Below the pieces are notes generated by a model. The model saw nothing but the letters and a program-made list of their open reading frames with translations. It did not search any database and was not told the origin of the DNA. A stretch of 64,000 nt of DNA. Origin: Bacilli bacterium. Its GTDB lineage: Bacteria; Bacillota_I; Bacilli_A; RFN20; UBA1709. The stretch covers positions 205,237-269,236 of the forward strand of contig JAXESU010000004.1 in the NCBI GenBank assembly GCA_034115825.1, given 5' to 3'. Made by a program: the position numbers and the translations under genes. Below are positions 17,440-24,761 of the stretch, in pieces; the first letter of the stretch is position 1, and each line of letters begins with the position of its first letter.

Positions 17440-17839
17440 ATTCTTATCACCATCTTAAAATTATCATAAATTATTTAATTACTCAATATAATTCATAAAA
17501 ATAGTAAGCCTATTAGCATTACAATTAAACTTATACTTAAATCGAAAAATGCTATAAATAAAATAATGCATCTAACATTCCTTATTCGATAAATTATAGA
17601 ACAAGTTCTAAAAATACAATTCATCAACTATCTAAAAAAATTTATAATATTAAGTCAGAGGATTAAGAATCGTACAATCTTAATTAGATTTTTGTTCGAA
17701 AAACAAAATTTCATAACCATTCACCATACAAGAATAAAATCATCAAATTAATTTTTTTCATCTCACATTAAATTAATTAGAGCAAAATTTATCAACAAAA
17801 AAATAGAGCAAAATGCTCTATTCTTTAATAACGAAAAAT

Positions 17840-18484
17840 TTAAAATTCTTTATCTTGAATAAAATGTAAACTTATTAAAATTGAGATAAATATACCAATA
17901 ATAATTAATGTTGTAATTAAAAACAACAATAATGTTGCATTCAAATTGGTTATCAAATTACTAATATCTATATTATTTAATTCTAAAATCTTCTTAATTC
18001 CAATAAACATAAGCAAAATAATTCCAAAGACTATTATCAAGACTATTCTACTTTTATCACCACTAAAGTTAATTTCAATTGGCAACATTATACTAATAAC
18101 TAGAAAGAGTATTAATAACGAGAATAAACTAATATATGCTAAGTCAATTGTTACTACATTTCCATTTATAAAACTTGATAAAGCAACTATTATAATACCG
18201 ATAACTATACCACTTACTCCACTTATTAATCCTAATAAGAATTTTTCAATAACATATTGTTTTCGGGAGAATGGAAGAGTAAAAAGATATAAATTCCCTT
18301 CATCAAATTCATCATAACTTATGGTAGTAATTGCTATTAAACAAAATACAAAAGATAAAAAATTCAAAATAAATAAATAATTTGCATCTGTAAAAGAAAA
18401 ACAAATACAAATTACTAAAATTAAAGCTAAAAATCTTTTTTGATTTAACATTAATTTTAAGTCTTTTAAAAATAGTCCTTTCAT
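17840..18484 (-). CDS. ABC-2 type transporter permease
   Basis: 214 aa, six hydrophobic segments. Start overlaps the upstream ATPase by 4 nt. Confidence 0.5.
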   Translation of the reverse strand: MKGLFLKDLKLMLNQKRFLALILVICICFSFTDANYLFILNFLSFVFCLIAITTISYDEFDEGNLYLFTLPFSRKQYVIEKFLLGLISGVSGIVIGIIIVALSSFINGNVVTIDLAYISLFSLLILFLVISIMLPIEINFSGDKSRIVLIIVFGIILLMFIGIKKILELNNIDISNLITNLNATLLLFLITTLIIIGIFISILISLHFIQDKEF

Positions 18485-19681: not shown

Positions 19682-19790
19682 TGAATTAAAATTTATAATA
19701 ATATTCAAGCTAATCACCTCAATAACAGTATATAACAGTATACAACAGTTGTCAATATTTAAAAATAGAGCCAAATGCTCTATTCTTAAA

Positions 19791-20645
19791 CTATAACTCA
19801 TTTAGAATTCCGTCTTCTAAATCTTTTAAATTATATAAAGTATCTAATACATCAAATGTTTCTTCTAAATTATGTTTAGCAGTTAACCAACCCTTACCAT
19901 CAGTAAACCAAACAAATGAAAAGTTATCAATGTTTATAGACTCAATTGCTAAATTCTTGTAACTTCGAGCAGTTTCGTTTAATTTTGAACCACTACTACC
20001 ATAAAAATTACATTCACAAGCGTAAATACGATTGTCTTTAACTAATACAAAATCAAATCTCTTTTCTGTTTTTCCATCATTACTTATTAATGATAAATCT
20101 AAACCAAATTGCTTTTCGATTGATGATTTAGTCATTTCTTTAAAATATGTCTTATTTTTAATAAAACCATATTTTACTAAGTAAGATTCTACTAAATCTT
20201 CCATTACATCTCCAGTACGATTCTTTCTTCCATTGGTATCCATACCTACTTCTACACCCATTACATAATCTACTAAATTATTAATAATATGATTTTGTAA
20301 TAAATCAAATAAACCAGTCTTTTCCATAAAATTACAATACTCTTCAATTGTATAATTAGGTTTATTAAAATTAAAAATATACTCACCAGTTGCATCTATA
20401 ATTTTAATTTCTTTTTCACGCTTTGCTAATAATATAGGAAGAACTTTTAGTGTTTTTGGATATTCATTTAAAATTGTTTTAAATTCATCTTTAATATTTT
20501 TTGAACCTATTAAAGAATTTAAAATATTTAACTCAATTTTAATATTATCGATATTTCCATAAACTTTTTCAAAATCCGTATAATAATTCCAAGTGGCAAT
20601 ACTATCTTTCATAGTATTTAACCAATCATTAAAATTTCTTTTCAT
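19791..20645 (-). CDS. Type II restriction endonuclease, DpnII/MboI family (GATC)
   Basis: 284 aa. Blocks such as VDYVMGVEVGMDTNGRKNRTGD and SGSKLNETARSYK recalled from memory of R.DpnII (DpnB). Immediately downstream of two methyltransferase genes. Confidence 0.7.
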   Translation of the reverse strand: MKRNFNDWLNTMKDSIATWNYYTDFEKVYGNIDNIKIELNILNSLIGSKNIKDEFKTILNEYPKTLKVLPILLAKREKEIKIIDATGEYIFNFNKPNYTIEEYCNFMEKTGLFDLLQNHIINNLVDYVMGVEVGMDTNGRKNRTGDVMEDLVESYLVKYGFIKNKTYFKEMTKSSIEKQFGLDLSLISNDGKTEKRFDFVLVKDNRIYACECNFYGSSGSKLNETARSYKNLAIESINIDNFSFVWFTDGKGWLTAKHNLEETFDVLDTLYNLKDLEDGILNEL

Positions 20646-20649
20646 TTTA

Positions 20650-21426
20650 TTACTCCTTTATAATATCAATTAATCGTTTTTCTGTGATTTTTATATATTC
20701 TTCTTCTTTTTCAATACCGATATACCTTCTATTTAATTTATAAGCGACAATTCCAGTAGTTCCACTACCATTAAATGGATCTAAGATAATATCATTTTCT
20801 TTAGTTGAAGCTAAAATAATTCTTTCTAATAATGATTCTGGTTTTTGTGTTGGGTGTTTTCCAAACACTTTTTCTTTTTTTAAAGGCAAATTTATTAACC
20901 AAACATCTTTCATTTGTTTATCATTATTTAGTTCTTTCATTAATGAATAATTAAAGTAATGTTTTCCTTTTTTATTTTGCGAAATTTGTTTTCTAGCCCA
21001 TATAATTGTCTCAGTTGAATGAGTGAATGAACGACACGCTAAATTAGGAGCAGGATTAGGTTTTTGCCAAGTAATATTATTGATAATTGAAAATCCCTCC
21101 ATTTCTAAAGCAACTCCAATTGAATAAATATTATGATAAGTACCACTAATCCAAATACTTCCATTATCCTTTAGAGCTTCTCTGCATAATTTTAACCACT
21201 TACGACTATATTTGATTTTCTTTTCAATAGTCATATTAGTTTTATCCCATTCACCTTTATTAACCGATACTTGTTTGCCTCCACTACAAGATATTCCATC
21301 ATTAGATAAAAAATATGGTGGATCAGCAAAAATCATATCAATACTTTTCGGTTCAATCTTCCTTAATTGTTTAAAACAGTCACCTTTTATAATTTTAAAT
21401 TTTTGATCATCATAAACTTTTTCCAT
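20650..21426 (-). CDS. DNA methyltransferase, DpnA (M2.DpnII)-like, beta-class with a DPPY motif
   Basis: 258 aa. FADPPYFLSNDGIS, NITWQKPNPAPNL and HPTQKPE..LERIILASTKE motifs, similar to DpnA. Confidence 0.8.
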   Translation of the reverse strand: MEKVYDDQKFKIIKGDCFKQLRKIEPKSIDMIFADPPYFLSNDGISCSGGKQVSVNKGEWDKTNMTIEKKIKYSRKWLKLCREALKDNGSIWISGTYHNIYSIGVALEMEGFSIINNITWQKPNPAPNLACRSFTHSTETIIWARKQISQNKKGKHYFNYSLMKELNNDKQMKDVWLINLPLKKEKVFGKHPTQKPESLLERIILASTKENDIILDPFNGSGTTGIVAYKLNRRYIGIEKEEEYIKITEKRLIDIIKE

Positions 21427-21434
21427 ATATTCAC

Positions 21435-22475
21435 CTAATAATTTGTGATGATAACTTCAAAAACATTACCACGTCCACTAGACTTAGAATTAATCATTCT
21501 TTTAGCTTCAACAATGTGAATATTGTATCCCGAGTATAGTTCATTTATAAAAGGAGTATTGTGATTTGAAAACATAACATAAACACCTTTTTCATCTAGA
21601 TCTTTAAACACTTTTGCTAGTCTAACTTGCTCTTCTTTACCAAATCCTTCTTTACTGTAATCAACAAATCCATTTTTATCTGGGAAAACATCATATGGTG
21701 GGTCAAAATAAACAAAATCACCTTTTTTGGCATTTTTGACAGCTTCTTCAAAATCTAATTGAGTTACATTAATTGAGCAATCCTTAAAATATCTAATTAA
21801 TTCAATCATATTGTTACGATCAAAAGTCGATACTTTTTCTTTATGTCCAGATGGAACATTAAAATATCCTTTTGCATTAACTCGATATAAACCATTAAAA
21901 CAAGCTTTGTTTAAATAAATTATTCTTGCTGCTCTAATATATTGAGGTAGAGTAATAAAATTGTCATTTCTATCCATCTCACGAATTTGATAATAGTATT
22001 CTTCATTATGATTTTGTTCATGTTTAATTAATTCATCAATCATTCTATTGGCATCTTCTTGATTTTTTAAACACTTATAAACACTAATTAATTCAGAATT
22101 TATATCATTAATATAAGCCATTTTAGGAGTCAAATCAAAAAACAATGCTCCACCACCAACAAATGGCTCATAATATATATTATAGTCTTTTGGCATAAAT
22201 TCCTTTAATTTTGTTAATAACTGTGTTTTACCCCCAGCCCATTTAACAAATGGTTTAACATCGTGTACATATTCAAAAGACATCAACTCAGGTATAGTAA
22301 CATTCAATGCACTACTTAATTTATTGATAGTTTCAAGAGTAACATTTACTTTACCTTGCTCAATTTTTGATATTTGTGCCCTTTCAATTCCGGTTAAATT
22401 AGATAATTCTAATTGAGAAATATCTAATATTGTTCTTAACTCTTTTATTCTATTTCCAAATAAAATTTGTAACAT
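21435..22475 (-). CDS. Dam-type N6-adenine (GATC) methyltransferase with an N-terminal XRE-family helix-turn-helix domain
   Basis: Start set at MLQILFGNRIKELR (ATG at 22475, RBS GGAG). The first 60 aa form an XRE HTH (ISQLELSNLTGIERAQISKIEQGK). The remainder has DpnM/Dam motifs (VKWAGGKTQLL, EPFVGGGALFF, YFDPPYD). Confidence 0.8.
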   Translation of the reverse strand: MLQILFGNRIKELRTILDISQLELSNLTGIERAQISKIEQGKVNVTLETINKLSSALNVTIPELMSFEYVHDVKPFVKWAGGKTQLLTKLKEFMPKDYNIYYEPFVGGGALFFDLTPKMAYINDINSELISVYKCLKNQEDANRMIDELIKHEQNHNEEYYYQIREMDRNDNFITLPQYIRAARIIYLNKACFNGLYRVNAKGYFNVPSGHKEKVSTFDRNNMIELIRYFKDCSINVTQLDFEEAVKNAKKGDFVYFDPPYDVFPDKNGFVDYSKEGFGKEEQVRLAKVFKDLDEKGVYVMFSNHNTPFINELYSGYNIHIVEAKRMINSKSSGRGNVFEVIITNY

Positions 22476-22508
22476 ATTTATCAACTCCAAATAAATTATA
22501 TCATAATT

Positions 22509-22530
22509 AATGTGTGTTATAATACACATT
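22509..22530. promoter_or_regulatory. Inverted repeat AATGTGT-N8-ACACATT; the spacer carries TATAAT
   Basis: Located in the divergent promoter between the HTH-methyltransferase gene (minus) and the second DpnA-like methyltransferase gene (plus). Confidence 0.4.
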
Positions 22531-22589
22531 TTTGTTTTTTAAAAGTTTTTTACTTTTTTTAACTATTAATATATTAAAGGAGTGATTAT

Positions 22590-23321
22590 ATGCTTTATAA
22601 CGATGATTGTATTAATGTTTTTAAAAAAATAACAGATAATAGTATTGATATGATTTTTGCTGATCCACCTTATTTTCTATCTAACAATGGATTAAGTATT
22701 CATAACGGAAAAATAGTCTCAGTAAATAAAGGAGAATGGGATAAAAAAGAAAACTATGAAGATGTAAAATTATTTAATGAAACATGGTTAAAAGAATGTT
22801 ATCGTGTATTAAAAGATGGTTCATCTTTATGGGTAAGTGGTACACAACATAATATCTTTGATATAAGAGAAATCATTTTAAAATTAGGGTTTAAAATTCA
22901 AAACATAATAATTTGGCATAAAATTGACCCTCCACCTCTTATATTTAAAACTAGATTTAAATTTTCTTATGAATTTATTATTTGGGCTACTAAAGGAAAA
23001 AACAATTCTTTTAATTATGAAGAAGTATTTAAAATAAATAATGAAGAAATGCACGATGTTTGGAATATCGGAGCAGTAAAAAAGGATGAAAAGCTTTTTG
23101 GCTATCATCCTACACAAAAACCAGAAAAATTATTAGAAATTATTATTAAATCCACATCAAAAGTCAATGATATTATCTTAGATCCATTTATGGGAAGTGG
23201 AACTACTTGTTATGTGGCAAAAAAATTAAATAGAAGATATATTGGAATTGAAAAAAACGAAGAATATTTTATAATATCTAAATCAAGAATAACAAATATA
23301 AAAATTACTCATATAAATTAA
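22590..23321 (+). CDS. Second DpnA-like DNA methyltransferase (paralog)
   Basis: 243 aa. FADPPYFLSNNG, HPTQKPEKLLEIIIKST, DPFMGSGTT. Divergently transcribed from the other R-M genes. Confidence 0.75.
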   Translation: MLYNDDCINVFKKITDNSIDMIFADPPYFLSNNGLSIHNGKIVSVNKGEWDKKENYEDVKLFNETWLKECYRVLKDGSSLWVSGTQHNIFDIREIILKLGFKIQNIIIWHKIDPPPLIFKTRFKFSYEFIIWATKGKNNSFNYEEVFKINNEEMHDVWNIGAVKKDEKLFGYHPTQKPEKLLEIIIKSTSKVNDIILDPFMGSGTTCYVAKKLNRRYIGIEKNEEYFIISKSRITNIKITHIN

Positions 23322-23489
23322 CAATTGCATATAAATAAAGATTCTCTTCATGCGTAATAAAATTAATAATCTTTATTTAAGGACACATTATATTTACGTA
23401 TAATTGAAATAAATAATTTTAAGTATCATTTAACGAATTATAATAAAAAGCGTTAGAATCACTTCTAACACTTTTTAACTTAATAAACA

Positions 23490-24332
23490 TTATCGATTTA
23501 TTGATATGTTTTTCTTCATTTTGATTACATATTCCAGTTGTAAAGGAGATAAATATCCATCCTTCACTTTTTTACTTGTTAATACTTTATTTTTATATTT
23601 AATATCATAGAATGAGTAACCTTTTATAGCATAAAAATCTAAGCCAAAATATATTAAAGCCAAATCTGTCATCAACTCATTTTTATCTGTAAAATTTAGA
23701 TTATTAATGTGAAAATAATAATGGATACATTCATGAAAACAAATAGTTAAAAGTCGATAAATATTCATTCCATTGTATATTACTATATTTATTTCGCAAC
23801 CTTCATCTGCAATAATATTTATCCAACCAGCATAATTGTTTTTAACAATACCTCGTTTAATCGTATTAACTACTATGTTACCTTCTAAATTTAAGTATTT
23901 AATAATTCGATTTATAATTTGTTTAACGTCGTATTCAGTTGCAATATATTTTTTATTATAATGCCTAATTATCCAATCAAAATTATCTTGAAAAGTATCA
24001 AAACTTATTGATTCGACTATCATAGAATTACTTAATTCGATCCATAAATCTTCTAACATTTTTTCATCATCATAGCTTATAATCTCATAAATATTTTCTT
24101 TTTTATAAAAAATGTCTTCATTAAAACTCTTCATTTTAAATGCTGATTTTGACTCTCTGGCAATAATATACATTAATAGACTTCTTCTATCTAATATCAT
24201 AAGTATCAAATAGTACACAACAAGTATTACATCAAGTATTATTATTTTTGTGGACAAAATAAATAATATTATCAAATAAATCTGCATATAGATAATAGTC
24301 TTGATATATAGCGATAAATATATTCTTTTCAT
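23490..24332 (-). CDS. Membrane-anchored protein with an HExxH motif (putative ImmA/IrrE-like zinc metallopeptidase)
   Basis: 280 aa. N-terminal transmembrane segments. The HECIH motif (in CFHECIHYYFH) is the only signature seen. Confidence 0.3.
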   Translation of the reverse strand: MKRIYLSLYIKTIIYMQIYLIILFILSTKIIILDVILVVYYLILMILDRRSLLMYIIARESKSAFKMKSFNEDIFYKKENIYEIISYDDEKMLEDLWIELSNSMIVESISFDTFQDNFDWIIRHYNKKYIATEYDVKQIINRIIKYLNLEGNIVVNTIKRGIVKNNYAGWINIIADEGCEINIVIYNGMNIYRLLTICFHECIHYYFHINNLNFTDKNELMTDLALIYFGLDFYAIKGYSFYDIKYKNKVLTSKKVKDGYLSPLQLEYVIKMKKNISINR

Positions 24333-24347
24333 TCAATTTAAAAATAA

Positions 24348-24761
24348 TTAATGTCCAAAGGTATTTCTACAATATGCATCAACTTGATATTGTAAATTAT
24401 TGCTATTTTCATTTATTCTAAATTTCTTTTCGAACACTTTTTCAGCACCACAATTAGGACAAATTGCTCTAAATACAACAATAACTTCAATGGATGGATT
24501 ATAACCCTTGCCATATTCACTTTTTCTTTCTTGATAACTATATTCACAACCTTTTAAACTTCCACCGCATTTATCACAAACTTTTCTAGATGATTGTGTG
24601 GCACTTATATACCATAAAAATCCTATAGATGCAACAATTAATCCGGCAATTGTTAAAGCCCCATTGACACTTATTCCAATGGTTACTAAAATGAACCCAA
24701 TAGCAAATAATACTCCAGCTTTTATTCTTTTCGATGTGTGTGGATTTTTCATTAACTTCAC
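24348..24761 (-). CDS. Zinc-ribbon membrane protein
   Basis: 137 aa. N-terminal transmembrane hairpin, then CDKCGG...C and CPNCG Cys pairs. Confidence 0.4.
   Translation of the reverse strand: MKLMKNPHTSKRIKAGVLFAIGFILVTIGISVNGALTIAGLIVASIGFLWYISATQSSRKVCDKCGGSLKGCEYSYQERKSEYGKGYNPSIEVIVVFRAICPNCGAEKVFEKKFRINENSNNLQYQVDAYCRNTFGH

What the first reader, a model, noticed from the sequence alone, without database searches (positions are those of the whole stretch)
19791..23321. DpnII-type GATC restriction-modification locus with three methyltransferases, one fused to an XRE HTH domain
The locus has a DpnII/MboI-family endonuclease. It has a DpnA-like methyltransferase, which in DpnII also methylates single-stranded DNA. 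It has a DpnM/Dam-like methyltransferase whose first 60 aa are an XRE helix-turn-helix domain. It has an extra, divergently transcribed DpnA-like paralog. Fusion of a C-protein-like controller to the methyltransferase, and duplication of the ssDNA methyltransferase, are unusual for this family. They suggest self-regulated establishment after horizontal transfer. The locus lies in an accessory stretch near tRNA-Leu.
Basis: partly seen in the sequence, partly recalled or inferred. Interest (0 to 1): 0.55.

Follow-up and report, generated by a model that had tools for sequence, protein, structure and literature searches.

The report
Self-regulated GATC restriction-modification cassette
This is an intact DpnII-type (GATC) restriction-modification operon whose main methylase carries a built-in repressor domain with a conserved operator in its own promoter, plus a third accessory methylase; it is a common but apparently unstudied variant of a well-known defence system.

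Summary
Window 19791-23321 holds four intact genes. They are R.DpnII (PF04556, E 1e-107), a DpnA orthologue (64% identical to M.LlaDCHIB), an XRE-HTH::DpnM fusion, and a divergent third beta-class methylase (M3). The true start of the fusion gene is 22475, giving 346 aa.

- The HTH is controller-protein-like: its best solved-structure matches are C.AhdI and C.BclI, and it hits a PADLOC 'control protein' model.
- I found its likely operator, an 18-bp palindrome of the form TGTG-N10-CACA at 22511-22528. It lies just upstream of an extended -10.
- The palindrome is present in 19 of 20 XRE-fused loci from many phyla and in 0 of about 181 other Dam loci. This points to SsoII-like auto-repression, here on an N6-adenine methylase heading an M-A-R operon.

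Two claims are weakened.
- The fusion is not rare. All 120 closest protein clusters are full-length fusions. Unfused relatives have a separate XRE-HTH gene instead. About 39 of 70 related DpnII loci carry a different N-terminal extension (weak, sub-threshold HTH_17 match) with its own conserved promoter palindrome.
- M3 is not a local duplication. It is an old clade, 46-48% identical to all DpnA-type enzymes, that travels with the XRE-DpnM gene in two alternative positions. Its specificity is unknown.

I found no evidence of a tRNA-Leu island.

The parts
19757..19791 (-). Hairpin terminator immediately after the stop codon of R. It marks the end of the M-A-R operon.
   Evidence: 15-bp stem, dG -16.8 kcal/mol, z -6.4 against shuffles. 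Sequence read. It is one copy of a 50-nt direct repeat (family D1).
19791..20645 (-). R.DpnII-family restriction endonuclease, 284 aa. Predicted to cut unmethylated GATC.
   Evidence: PF04556 over the full profile, E 1.4e-107. PADLOC REase_II 1.7e-107. 33% identical to R.LlaDCHI. It carries all columns that are invariant among 45 diverse relatives.
20650..21426 (-). DpnA orthologue: beta-class N6-adenine methylase, 258 aa.
   Evidence: PF01555 E 5e-63. 64% identical to M.LlaDCHIB. PADLOC MTase_II PDLC03371, 340.7 bits. DPPY and FxGxG motifs are present.
21435..22259 (-). DpnM/Dam-class (D12, alpha) N6-adenine methylase domain of the fusion protein, residues 73-346.
   Evidence: 2DPM E 2.6e-77. 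TIGR00571 281.6 bits. 47% identical to M.LlaDCHIA. In the AF2 model the ordered domain runs from residue 83 to 346.
22260..22475 (-). XRE-type HTH domain (residues 2-64) plus linker (65-82) of the fusion protein. The true start codon is at 22473-22475.
   Evidence: PF01381 E 5e-12. C.AhdI 5.7e-8 and C.BclI 7.1e-8. PADLOC Control_protein 1.4e-14. AF2 gives five helices at pLDDT 86-97 and then an unstructured linker. The start is fixed by P0001.
22485..22488 (-). Shine-Dalgarno GGAG of the fusion gene, 9 nt before the ATG.
   Evidence: Read directly from the sequence.
22495..22503 (-). Extended -10 promoter element TGATATAAT of the M-A-R operon.
   Evidence: Sequence. The same element, TGnTATAAT-like, sits 2-17 nt after the palindrome in 14 of 15 aligned loci.
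22511..22528 (.). Predicted operator of the HTH domain: the 18-bp palindrome TGTGTGTTATAATACACA. The wider 22-bp palindrome spans 22509-22530.
   Evidence: Palindrome found (I11). It is the only TGTG-N10-CACA in the 64 kb. It is conserved at the same place in 19 of 20 XRE-fused loci and in none of the other Dam loci.
22515..22523 (+). Possible extended -10 (TGTTATAAT) pointing towards M3, embedded in the operator. This is speculative.
   Evidence: Sequence only. A similar TGTTAAAAT is present in L245 but not in L242.
22590..23321 (+). M3: third, divergently transcribed beta-class N6-adenine methylase, 243 aa. Specificity unknown.
   Evidence: PF01555 E 2e-58. It has its own clade at 64-73% identity. 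It is 46-48% identical to all DpnA-type groups. It lies next to an XRE-HTH::DpnM gene in every locus examined.
23444..23477 (.). AT-flanked hairpin between the convergent genes M3 and 23490-24332. It is a likely bidirectional terminator.
   Evidence: Terminator scan: 15 pairs, loop of 4.

Best explanation
The locus is a functional Type IIP DpnII/LlaDCHI-type restriction-modification cassette, predicted to act on GATC. One promoter drives the operon HTH-dpnM, dpnA, dpnB(R), with gaps of 8 and 4 nt between genes and a hairpin terminator after R.

The first product has two functions. Its C-terminal D12 domain methylates GATC. Its N-terminal five-helix XRE domain, joined by a flexible linker of about 18 residues, binds the 18-bp palindrome TGTG-N10-CACA, probably as two molecules. 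That palindrome occupies the -35/spacer region directly upstream of an extended -10.

Binding would occlude RNA polymerase, so the methylase represses its own operon. This is negative autoregulation. In a naive cell the strong promoter fires fully. As the methylase accumulates, the whole M-A-R transcript is throttled to a low, fixed M:R ratio.

M3 is a separate transcription unit, so it can supply methylase that is not tied to R expression. It may itself be under the same operator.

What is shown: gene identities, domain architecture, the palindrome and its strict co-occurrence with the XRE domain, and the promoter geometry.
What is inferred: GATC specificity, binding, the direction of regulation, and the role of M3.
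For: The AF2 two-domain model with a linker comes.

Operator evidence:
- In 15 aligned promoter regions from Bacilli, Erysipelotrichaceae, Tenericutes, Staphylococcaceae MAGs and viral contigs, the layout is the same. The order is palindrome, gap of 2-17 nt (mostly 6-10), TGnTATAAT, 16-33 nt, then ATG.
- Positions 1-4 and 15-18 are invariant. L003 and L004 carry a symmetric change, TGTGCA...TGCACA.
- 19 of 20 XRE-fused loci have the motif within 350 nt upstream of the Dam domain. None of about 181 other Dam loci do. Those comprise 138 without an N-terminal extension and about 43 with other extensions. Only 42 motif hits occur in 2.4 Mb of fetched DNA.
- The motif occurs once in the 64-kb window.

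Close relatives without the fusion (L083, L086) have a separate 64-aa XRE gene ending 2 nt before dpnM. Its recognition helix differs and the TGTG-N10-CACA motif is absent.

GATC is depleted in the window: 107 observed against 170 expected.

Precedent: M.SsoII, M.Ecl18kI, M.EcoRII, M.MspI and M.ScrFIA repress their own promoters through an N-terminal HTH (PMC3978073, PMC3874152, PMC12707154).
Against: - Nothing here shows binding or repression.
- The closest characterised HTH relatives, the C proteins, are usually activators at low concentration.
- R lies in the same operon, so auto-repression gives no obvious delay of R relative to M at establishment.
- The 5' UTR implied by the -10 is very short, about 10-13 nt.
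- GATC specificity rests on family membership and on modest GATC depletion. CATG is depleted even more.
- One fused locus (L088) has a degenerate palindrome.
- The role of M3 is conjecture.
Confidence: 0.68

Rival explanations
1. The HTH domain acts like a classical C protein. It would activate the operon promoter (positive feedback) at low concentration rather than simply repressing it.
For: The best matches of the domain are C.AhdI and C.BclI and PADLOC control-protein models. C proteins bind near the -35 and activate (PMC2632904, PMC12707154).
Against: - There is a single palindrome, not the paired C-box layout.
- The promoter already has a near-consensus extended -10, so it should be strong without an activator.
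- The gap between operator and -10 varies from 2 to 17 nt, which fits occlusion better than a fixed activating geometry.
- The regulated gene is M, not R.
Confidence: 0.15
2. M3 is an unrelated orphan methylase of another specificity, for example a GANTC or other A-methylating enzyme. It would merely hitch-hike beside the cassette and contribute nothing to the GATC system.
For: - It is only 46-48% identical to every DpnA-type group, including M.LlaDCHIB.
- It has its own transcription unit.
- In L245 it persists without DpnA or R.DpnII.
Against: - It is adjacent to an XRE-HTH::DpnM gene in all independent loci seen, in two different positions.
- Its best PADLOC model is the same as for the DpnA orthologue (PDLC03371, 292.6 bits), ahead of the model PDLC03216 (237.7 bits), which I take to be CcrM-like from its 364-residue profile length alone.
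- GANTC is not depleted in the window, although orphan methylases need not cause depletion.
Confidence: 0.3
3. The HTH is a general DNA-tethering or targeting module that aids methylation. It would not be a transcription regulator.
For: M.SsoII shows strong non-specific DNA binding (PMC3978073). Domain fusions to methylases are common (PMC4738411).
Against: - A specific palindrome is conserved exactly at the promoter of the gene. It is absent from relatives that lack the domain, and it occurs only once in 64 kb.
- Unfused relatives encode the domain as a separate small gene.
Confidence: 0.07
4. The cassette is a decaying or silent remnant with no restriction activity.
For: DpnII-type R genes are often truncated in Mycoplasma hominis strains (PMC10305163).
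Against: - All four ORFs are full length with catalytic motifs intact.
- The promoter, Shine-Dalgarno sequence and terminator are intact.
- GATC is depleted.
Confidence: 0.08

Closest known systems
DpnII (S. pneumoniae) and LlaDCHI (L. lactis pSRQ700) GATC restriction-modification systems
   Same: Same three core genes in the same order on one strand: a DpnM-type alpha methylase, a DpnA-type beta methylase and an R of PF04556. Identity to the LlaDCHI proteins is 47%, 64% and 33%. DpnM structure 2DPM matches at E 2.6e-77.
   Different: The textbook systems have no HTH on DpnM (LlaDCHIA is 284 aa) and no third methylase. In S. pneumoniae, dpnA has a competence-induced promoter (PMC3573125). Nothing comparable was seen here.
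Regulatory methylases M.SsoII, M.Ecl18kI, M.EcoRII, M.MspI, M.ScrFIA
   Same: An N-terminal HTH region of about 70 residues, a flexible linker and a methylase domain. A palindromic regulatory site, distinct from the methylation site, lies in the gene's own promoter. The expected result is auto-repression (PMC3978073, PMC3874152). M.SsoII is divided 1-71 / 72-379. Here the division is 1-72 / 73-346.
   Different: The characterised examples listed in the two papers that enumerate them (PMC3978073, PMC3874152) are all C5-cytosine methylases, mostly with a divergent R gene whose promoter competes with that of M. Here the catalytic domain is a D12 N6-adenine methylase, and R is co-transcribed downstream. 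The operator sequences are unrelated (AGGACAAATTGTCCT against TGTGTA-N6-TACACA).
Controller (C) proteins such as C.AhdI and C.BclI
   Same: XRE five-helix fold. These are the closest solved relatives of the N-terminal domain and it matches a PADLOC control-protein model. Unfused relatives (L083, L086) have a 64-aa stand-alone version.
   Different: Here the domain is fused and sits upstream of M rather than R. There is a single palindrome rather than paired C-boxes. The predicted action is repression only.
SsuDAT1I and MboI-type GATC systems with extra enzymes (recalled from memory, not tested here)
   Same: GATC systems with more than the minimal two genes.
   Different: To my recollection those systems duplicate Dam-type methylases or the R gene. 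They do not add an outgroup beta-class methylase or an HTH.

Membership tests
DpnII-type (GATC) Type IIP restriction-modification system | Restriction endonuclease of the DpnII/MboI family (PF04556), full length | tested here: met
   PF04556 positions 1-278 of 278, E 1.4e-107. All invariant columns of 45 diverse relatives are present.
DpnII-type (GATC) Type IIP restriction-modification system | DpnM/Dam-class (D12) N6-adenine methylase with intact motifs | tested here: met
   TIGR00571 scores 281.6 bits against a cut-off of 114.85. 2DPM matches at E 2.6e-77. The DPPY and FxGxG columns are invariant.
DpnII-type (GATC) Type IIP restriction-modification system | Second, DpnA-type beta-class methylase between M and R, all on one strand | tested here: met
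   64% identical to M.LlaDCHIB. Order is M-A-R with gaps of 8 and 4 nt.
DpnII-type (GATC) Type IIP restriction-modification system | Recognition of GATC, with protection by G6mATC | not testable with these tools
   Only indirect evidence: family membership, and a GATC observed/expected ratio of 0.63.
DpnII-type (GATC) Type IIP restriction-modification system | The DpnA-type enzyme methylates single-stranded DNA | not testable with these tools
   Known for S. pneumoniae DpnA (PMC3573125). No sequence signature for this activity was available to test.
Regulatory methylases of the SsoII/EcoRII type | N-terminal HTH domain joined by a flexible linker to the methylase domain | tested here: met
   PF01381 E 5e-12. 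AF2 gives helices over 2-64, a linker over 65-82 and the methylase domain over 83-346.
Regulatory methylases of the SsoII/EcoRII type | Palindromic regulatory site in the gene's own promoter, distinct from the methylation site | tested here: met
   TGTG-N10-CACA at 22511-22528, next to the extended -10. It is conserved in 19 of 20 fused loci. There is no GATC in the intergenic region.
Regulatory methylases of the SsoII/EcoRII type | Demonstrated binding and auto-repression | not testable with these tools
   Needs EMSA or footprinting and reporter assays.
Regulatory methylases of the SsoII/EcoRII type | C5-cytosine methylase catalytic domain (all characterised members) | tested here: not met
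   The catalytic domain is PF02086 D12 N6-adenine. It therefore works like this family but is not a homologous member.
Controller (C) proteins of restriction-modification systems | XRE-type HTH homologous to known C proteins | tested here: met
   C.AhdI 5.7e-8 and C.BclI 7.1e-8. PADLOC Control_protein 1.4e-14.
Controller (C) proteins of restriction-modification systems | Stand-alone small protein encoded upstream of, and activating, the R gene | tested here: not met
   Here it is fused to M and lies upstream of M. Stand-alone versions in L083 and L086 also precede M, not R.
Controller (C) proteins of restriction-modification systems | Paired C-box operator (distal activating site plus proximal repressing site) | tested here: inconclusive
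   Only one palindrome is evident in each of the 15 promoters. Weak second sites were not searched for exhaustively.

The most novel reading that the evidence does not exclude
XRE-HTH::DpnM with its TGTG-N10-CACA operator would be the first recognised auto-regulatory circuit built on an N6-adenine (Dam-class) methylase. A second class exists, with a weak HTH_17-like N-terminal extension and the promoter palindrome TATTC-N8-GAATA. Together they would mean that most DpnII-family systems of gut and host-associated bacteria are controlled by their own methylase, with no C protein and no R-delay switch. M3 would then be a decoupled 'safety' methylase, or an enzyme of new specificity, that co-evolved with this regulatory variant.
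Probability: 0.4. Interest if true: 0.55.

Novelty: new variant of a known kind. Interest (0 to 1): 0.4.

Why it matters
DpnII/MboI-type GATC systems are textbook enzymes and are very widespread in gut Firmicutes, Mollicutes, Saccharibacteria and other groups. Their regulation is usually treated as a simple constitutive operon.

This work gives a concrete, testable cis-element and a trans-acting domain for a large subfamily. It suggests that methylase-borne repressors have so far been shown only for C5 methylases in the reviews I read. They may nevertheless be the rule rather than the exception in this N6-adenine family.

It matters practically in two ways. GATC restriction is a major barrier to transforming such organisms. 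A repressor/operator pair of this size is also a potential orthogonal regulatory part.

The recurrent third methylase raises a simple open question: why should a GATC system need three adenine methylases? One expression experiment could answer it.

Tried and rejected
- An exact look-up of the R protein found no record. P0001 gave only a 3.5-kb copy of the same locus.
I replaced it with four exact look-ups of M3-clade proteins.
- An apparent full-length HTH-Dam match on S. thermophilus plasmid pSt08 was an alignment running through the stop codon of the rep gene. It is not a fusion.
- The stricter operator pattern TGTGNA-N6-TNCACA misses the window copy, whose right arm is CACACA. I used the looser TGTG-N10-CACA instead.
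- Regulation by promoter methylation, as in CfrBI, is rejected because there is no GATC in 22476-22589.
- A tRNA-Leu-linked island is rejected. There is no repeat of the tRNA end, no integrase among nearby ORFs, and the GC content is unremarkable.
- There is no second operator copy near M3 in loci where M3 lies downstream of R.
- R.DpnII has no solved structure detectable by sequence.
- Seven literature searches found no description of an XRE-DpnM fusion, its operator, or a three-methylase DpnII system. The library lacks REBASE and most subscription journals, so this is weak evidence of novelty.
- I did not run a structure-library search on the AF2 model. The sequence-level matches already identified both domains.


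Full report
**What is there**

The window has about 27% G+C. The fusion protein, R and M3 are identical to proteins annotated from a 'MAG: Bacilli bacterium' contig of 274,736 bp.

Between 19791 and 23321 there are four intact genes.
- On the minus strand, with gaps of only 8 and 4 nt: an HTH::Dam fusion (21435-22475), a beta-class methylase A (20650-21426) and an endonuclease R (19791-20645).
- On the plus strand, transcribed divergently from a 114-bp intergenic region: a second beta-class methylase, M3 (22590-23321).

Identities are as follows.
- R matches PF04556 (DpnII) over the whole profile, E 1.4e-107. It carries every column that is invariant among 45 diverse relatives.
- The fusion protein combines PF01381 HTH_3 (E 5e-12) with PF02086 D12 methylase (E 1.5e-60). 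It passes the NCBIfam Dam cut-off (281.6 against 114.85 bits). It matches the DpnM crystal structure 2DPM at E 2.6e-77.
- A and M3 are both PF01555 and are 53% identical to each other.
- Against the experimentally known LlaDCHI system of pSRQ700, the Dam domain is 47% identical, A is 64%, R is 33% and M3 is only 47%.

One correction concerns the start codon. The mechanical ORF starts at 22529. The real start is the ATG at 22475, with GGAG 9 nt upstream. It gives the 346-aa protein found in databases (P0001, 100% identical). All 120 closest relatives are 344-350 aa, apart from a few longer gene calls.

**The HTH domain**

Among all solved structures, the best matches of residues about 22-82 of the mechanical ORF are the controller proteins C.AhdI (5.7e-8) and C.BclI (7.1e-8). 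PADLOC's 'Control_protein' model PDLC03665 matches residues 3-70 at 1.4e-14.

An AlphaFold2 model built on 24 relatives has mean pLDDT 84. It gives a five-helix N-domain (residues 2-64, pLDDT 86-97), an unstructured linker (65-82) and the Dam domain (83-346). This is the same layout as M.SsoII, with an N-terminal region 1-71 and a methylase domain 72-379 joined by a flexible linker (PMC3978073).

**The operator**

The intergenic region holds a 22-bp palindrome, AATGTGTGTTA|TAATACACATT, at 22509-22530. I collected related loci from four sources: viral contigs, a genome scan seeded with a diverse R.DpnII alignment, exact look-ups and the window itself.

In 15 promoter regions of XRE-fused genes I found the same anatomy. 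The order is:
- TGTG(T/C/G)A-N6-T(A/G/N)CACA;
- a gap of 2-17 nt, mostly 6-10;
- an extended -10 of the form TGnTATAAT;
- 16-33 nt;
- the ATG.

Positions 1-4 and 15-18 of the palindrome are invariant. L003 and L004 carry a symmetric change in both arms (TGTGCA...TGCACA), as expected for a site bound by a dimer.

The counts are clear.
- 19 of 20 loci with an XRE-fused Dam (55% identity or more) have TGTG-N10-CACA within 350 nt upstream of the Dam domain. The exception, L088, has a degenerate copy.
- None of about 181 other Dam loci has it there. These are 138 without an N-terminal extension and about 43 with other extensions.
- There are only 42 hits in the 2.4 Mb of fetched DNA.
- In the 64-kb window it occurs once. 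On its own that would not be significant (0.45 expected). The cross-locus conservation is the evidence.

With the -10 hexamer at -12 to -7, the operator spans roughly -40 to -19. It therefore overlaps the -35/spacer of a promoter that should be strong unaided. This geometry, together with the variable spacing, argues for repression by occlusion rather than activation.

There is no GATC in the intergenic region, so control through promoter methylation is excluded.

**Fused and unfused forms**

Within the same DpnM clade (50-66% identity) some genes lack the HTH. In L083 and L086 a separate 64-aa XRE gene ends 2 nt before dpnM, giving a C-M-A-R operon (PF01381 E about 4e-10). Its recognition helix differs, and the TGTG-N10-CACA motif is absent there. 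This supports reading the window's N-domain as a controller gene fused to its target.

**How unusual is the fusion?**

It is not unusual in sequence space. All 120 best hits of the fusion protein (59-100% identity) have both domains. They include Mycoplasma sp. 888 and a Bacteroidales MAG.

I also tallied the 70 species-level genome loci that are closest in R sequence and show a complete Dam gene.
- 6 are XRE-fused.
- 2 have the separate XRE gene.
- About 22 have no extension.
- About 39 carry a different conserved N-terminal extension of about 55 aa (ISAKEAAEKWNISQRRV...GNxWxIP). It gives weak, sub-threshold HTH_17 matches, E 1e-4 to 7e-4.

All 36 of the extracted promoters from that last group share CTTGCTATTATTC-N8-GAATATAAT. 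This is a palindrome, TATTC-N8-GAATA, that fills the spacer and overlaps the -10.

The papers I read that enumerate characterised regulatory methylases list only C5 enzymes (PMC3978073, PMC3874152); a recent review discusses the same class (PMC12707154). I found nothing on Dam-class examples.

**The third methylase**

M3 has its own clade of 235-243-aa proteins at 64-73% identity. It is equidistant, at 46-48%, from every DpnA-type group, including M.LlaDCHIB. Those groups are 53-65% identical to one another. It is therefore an old paralogue, not a local duplication.

It is tightly linked to the XRE-fused dpnM.
- Four look-ups of M3-clade proteins, chosen without knowing their neighbours, all landed next to an XRE-HTH::Dam gene.
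- M3 appears divergent-upstream in the window, L242 and L245.
- It appears downstream of R on the same strand in L246, L247, L082, L084 and L002.
Co-occurrence there is inferred.
- In L245 the fused methylase, operator and M3 persist, while DpnA and R are replaced by T5orf172 and OLD-like genes.

M3 and A have the same best PADLOC model (PDLC03371, at 292.6 and 340.7 bits). That model scores ahead of PDLC03216, which I take to be CcrM-like from its 364-residue profile length. This mildly favours GATC specificity. The specificity nevertheless remains untested.

Because M3 is a separate transcription unit, it could supply methylation that is uncoupled from R expression. In the window an extended -10 (TGTTATAAT, 22515-22523) pointing towards M3 lies inside the operator. 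That would put M3 under the same control, but it is shared by only one of the two other divergent loci, so it is speculative.

**Operon ends and genomic context**

A strong hairpin follows the R stop codon at 19757-19791 (dG -16.8 kcal/mol, z -6.4). A hairpin at 23444-23477 separates M3 from the convergent downstream gene.

GATC is the second most depleted 4-bp palindrome in the window (107 against 170 expected). GANTC is not depleted.

The cassette sits in different neighbourhoods in other genomes, so it moves as a unit. Here I found no integrase, no tRNA-derived repeat and no clear GC anomaly. The tRNA-Leu link is therefore unsupported.

**Verdict**

This is a real, intact DpnII-type cassette. 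Its emphasis on rarity and duplication is not borne out.

The added value of this work is threefold: a conserved operator/repressor pair on an N6-adenine methylase, the fused and unfused forms, and a recurrent outgroup third methylase. I rate it a new variant of a known kind and of moderate interest.

Noticed in passing
L089-L159 (genome loci), about 30-60 nt upstream of the methylase start codons: Two-gene DpnII-type systems have a Dam methylase with a conserved N-terminal extension of about 55 aa that gives a weak HTH_17 match. All 36 extracted promoters share CTTGCTATTATTC-N8-GAATATAAT. This is a palindrome, TATTC-N8-GAATA, between the -35 and the -10. It looks like a second, independent class of putative methylase-borne repressor and operator, present across Clostridia, Saccharibacteria, Desulfovibrionaceae and others.
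   Followed up: partly
window 17799-17848 and 19761-19810: A 50-nt direct repeat, 80% identical. Each copy covers the last codons of a gene plus a hairpin terminator, one after the ABC permease and one after R. The two copies bracket the 1962-bp GntR/ABC-ATPase/permease module. This suggests a past insertion or recombination at the end of the restriction-modification cassette.
   Followed up: partly
L245:2900-6720: A variant locus in which the XRE-HTH::Dam gene, its operator and the divergent M3 are kept. DpnA and R.DpnII are replaced by a T5orf172 gene and an ABC-ATPase/OLD-TOPRIM gene. A zeta-toxin gene and a serine recombinase gene lie nearby.
   Followed up: no
L247:2790-2836, also L249 and L002: Where M3 lies downstream of R, its Shine-Dalgarno sequence (AGGAGTGA) forms the 3' arm of a hairpin, TCACTCCT...AGGAGTGA, followed by T6 and a TTG start codon. 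This could be a terminator that also sequesters the ribosome-binding site.
   Followed up: no
window 19727-19755 (- strand): The promoter of the downstream GntR/PmtR-like regulator and ABC exporter operon is near consensus (TTGACA-17-TATACT). It has a tandem TATACTGTTA repeat between the -35 and the -10, which is a likely GntR operator.
   Followed up: no
whole window: CATG is the most depleted 4-bp palindrome (98 observed against 181 expected), more so than GATC. This hints at a CATG-specific restriction system elsewhere in the genome.
   Followed up: no
window 23490-24332 and 24348-24761 (- strand): Two genes of unknown function lie between M3 and tRNA-Leu. One is a 280-aa membrane-anchored protein with a faint SprT-like match. 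The other is a 137-aa membrane protein with a zinc-ribbon-like CxxC pair. Neither hits a defence model.
   Followed up: partly
L251 (S. thermophilus plasmid pSt08) 1776-2831: tblastn aligns the whole fusion protein here, but the N-terminal part runs through the stop codon of the rep gene. The plasmid's Dam methylase is unfused. This is a caution for automated fusion counts.
   Followed up: yes
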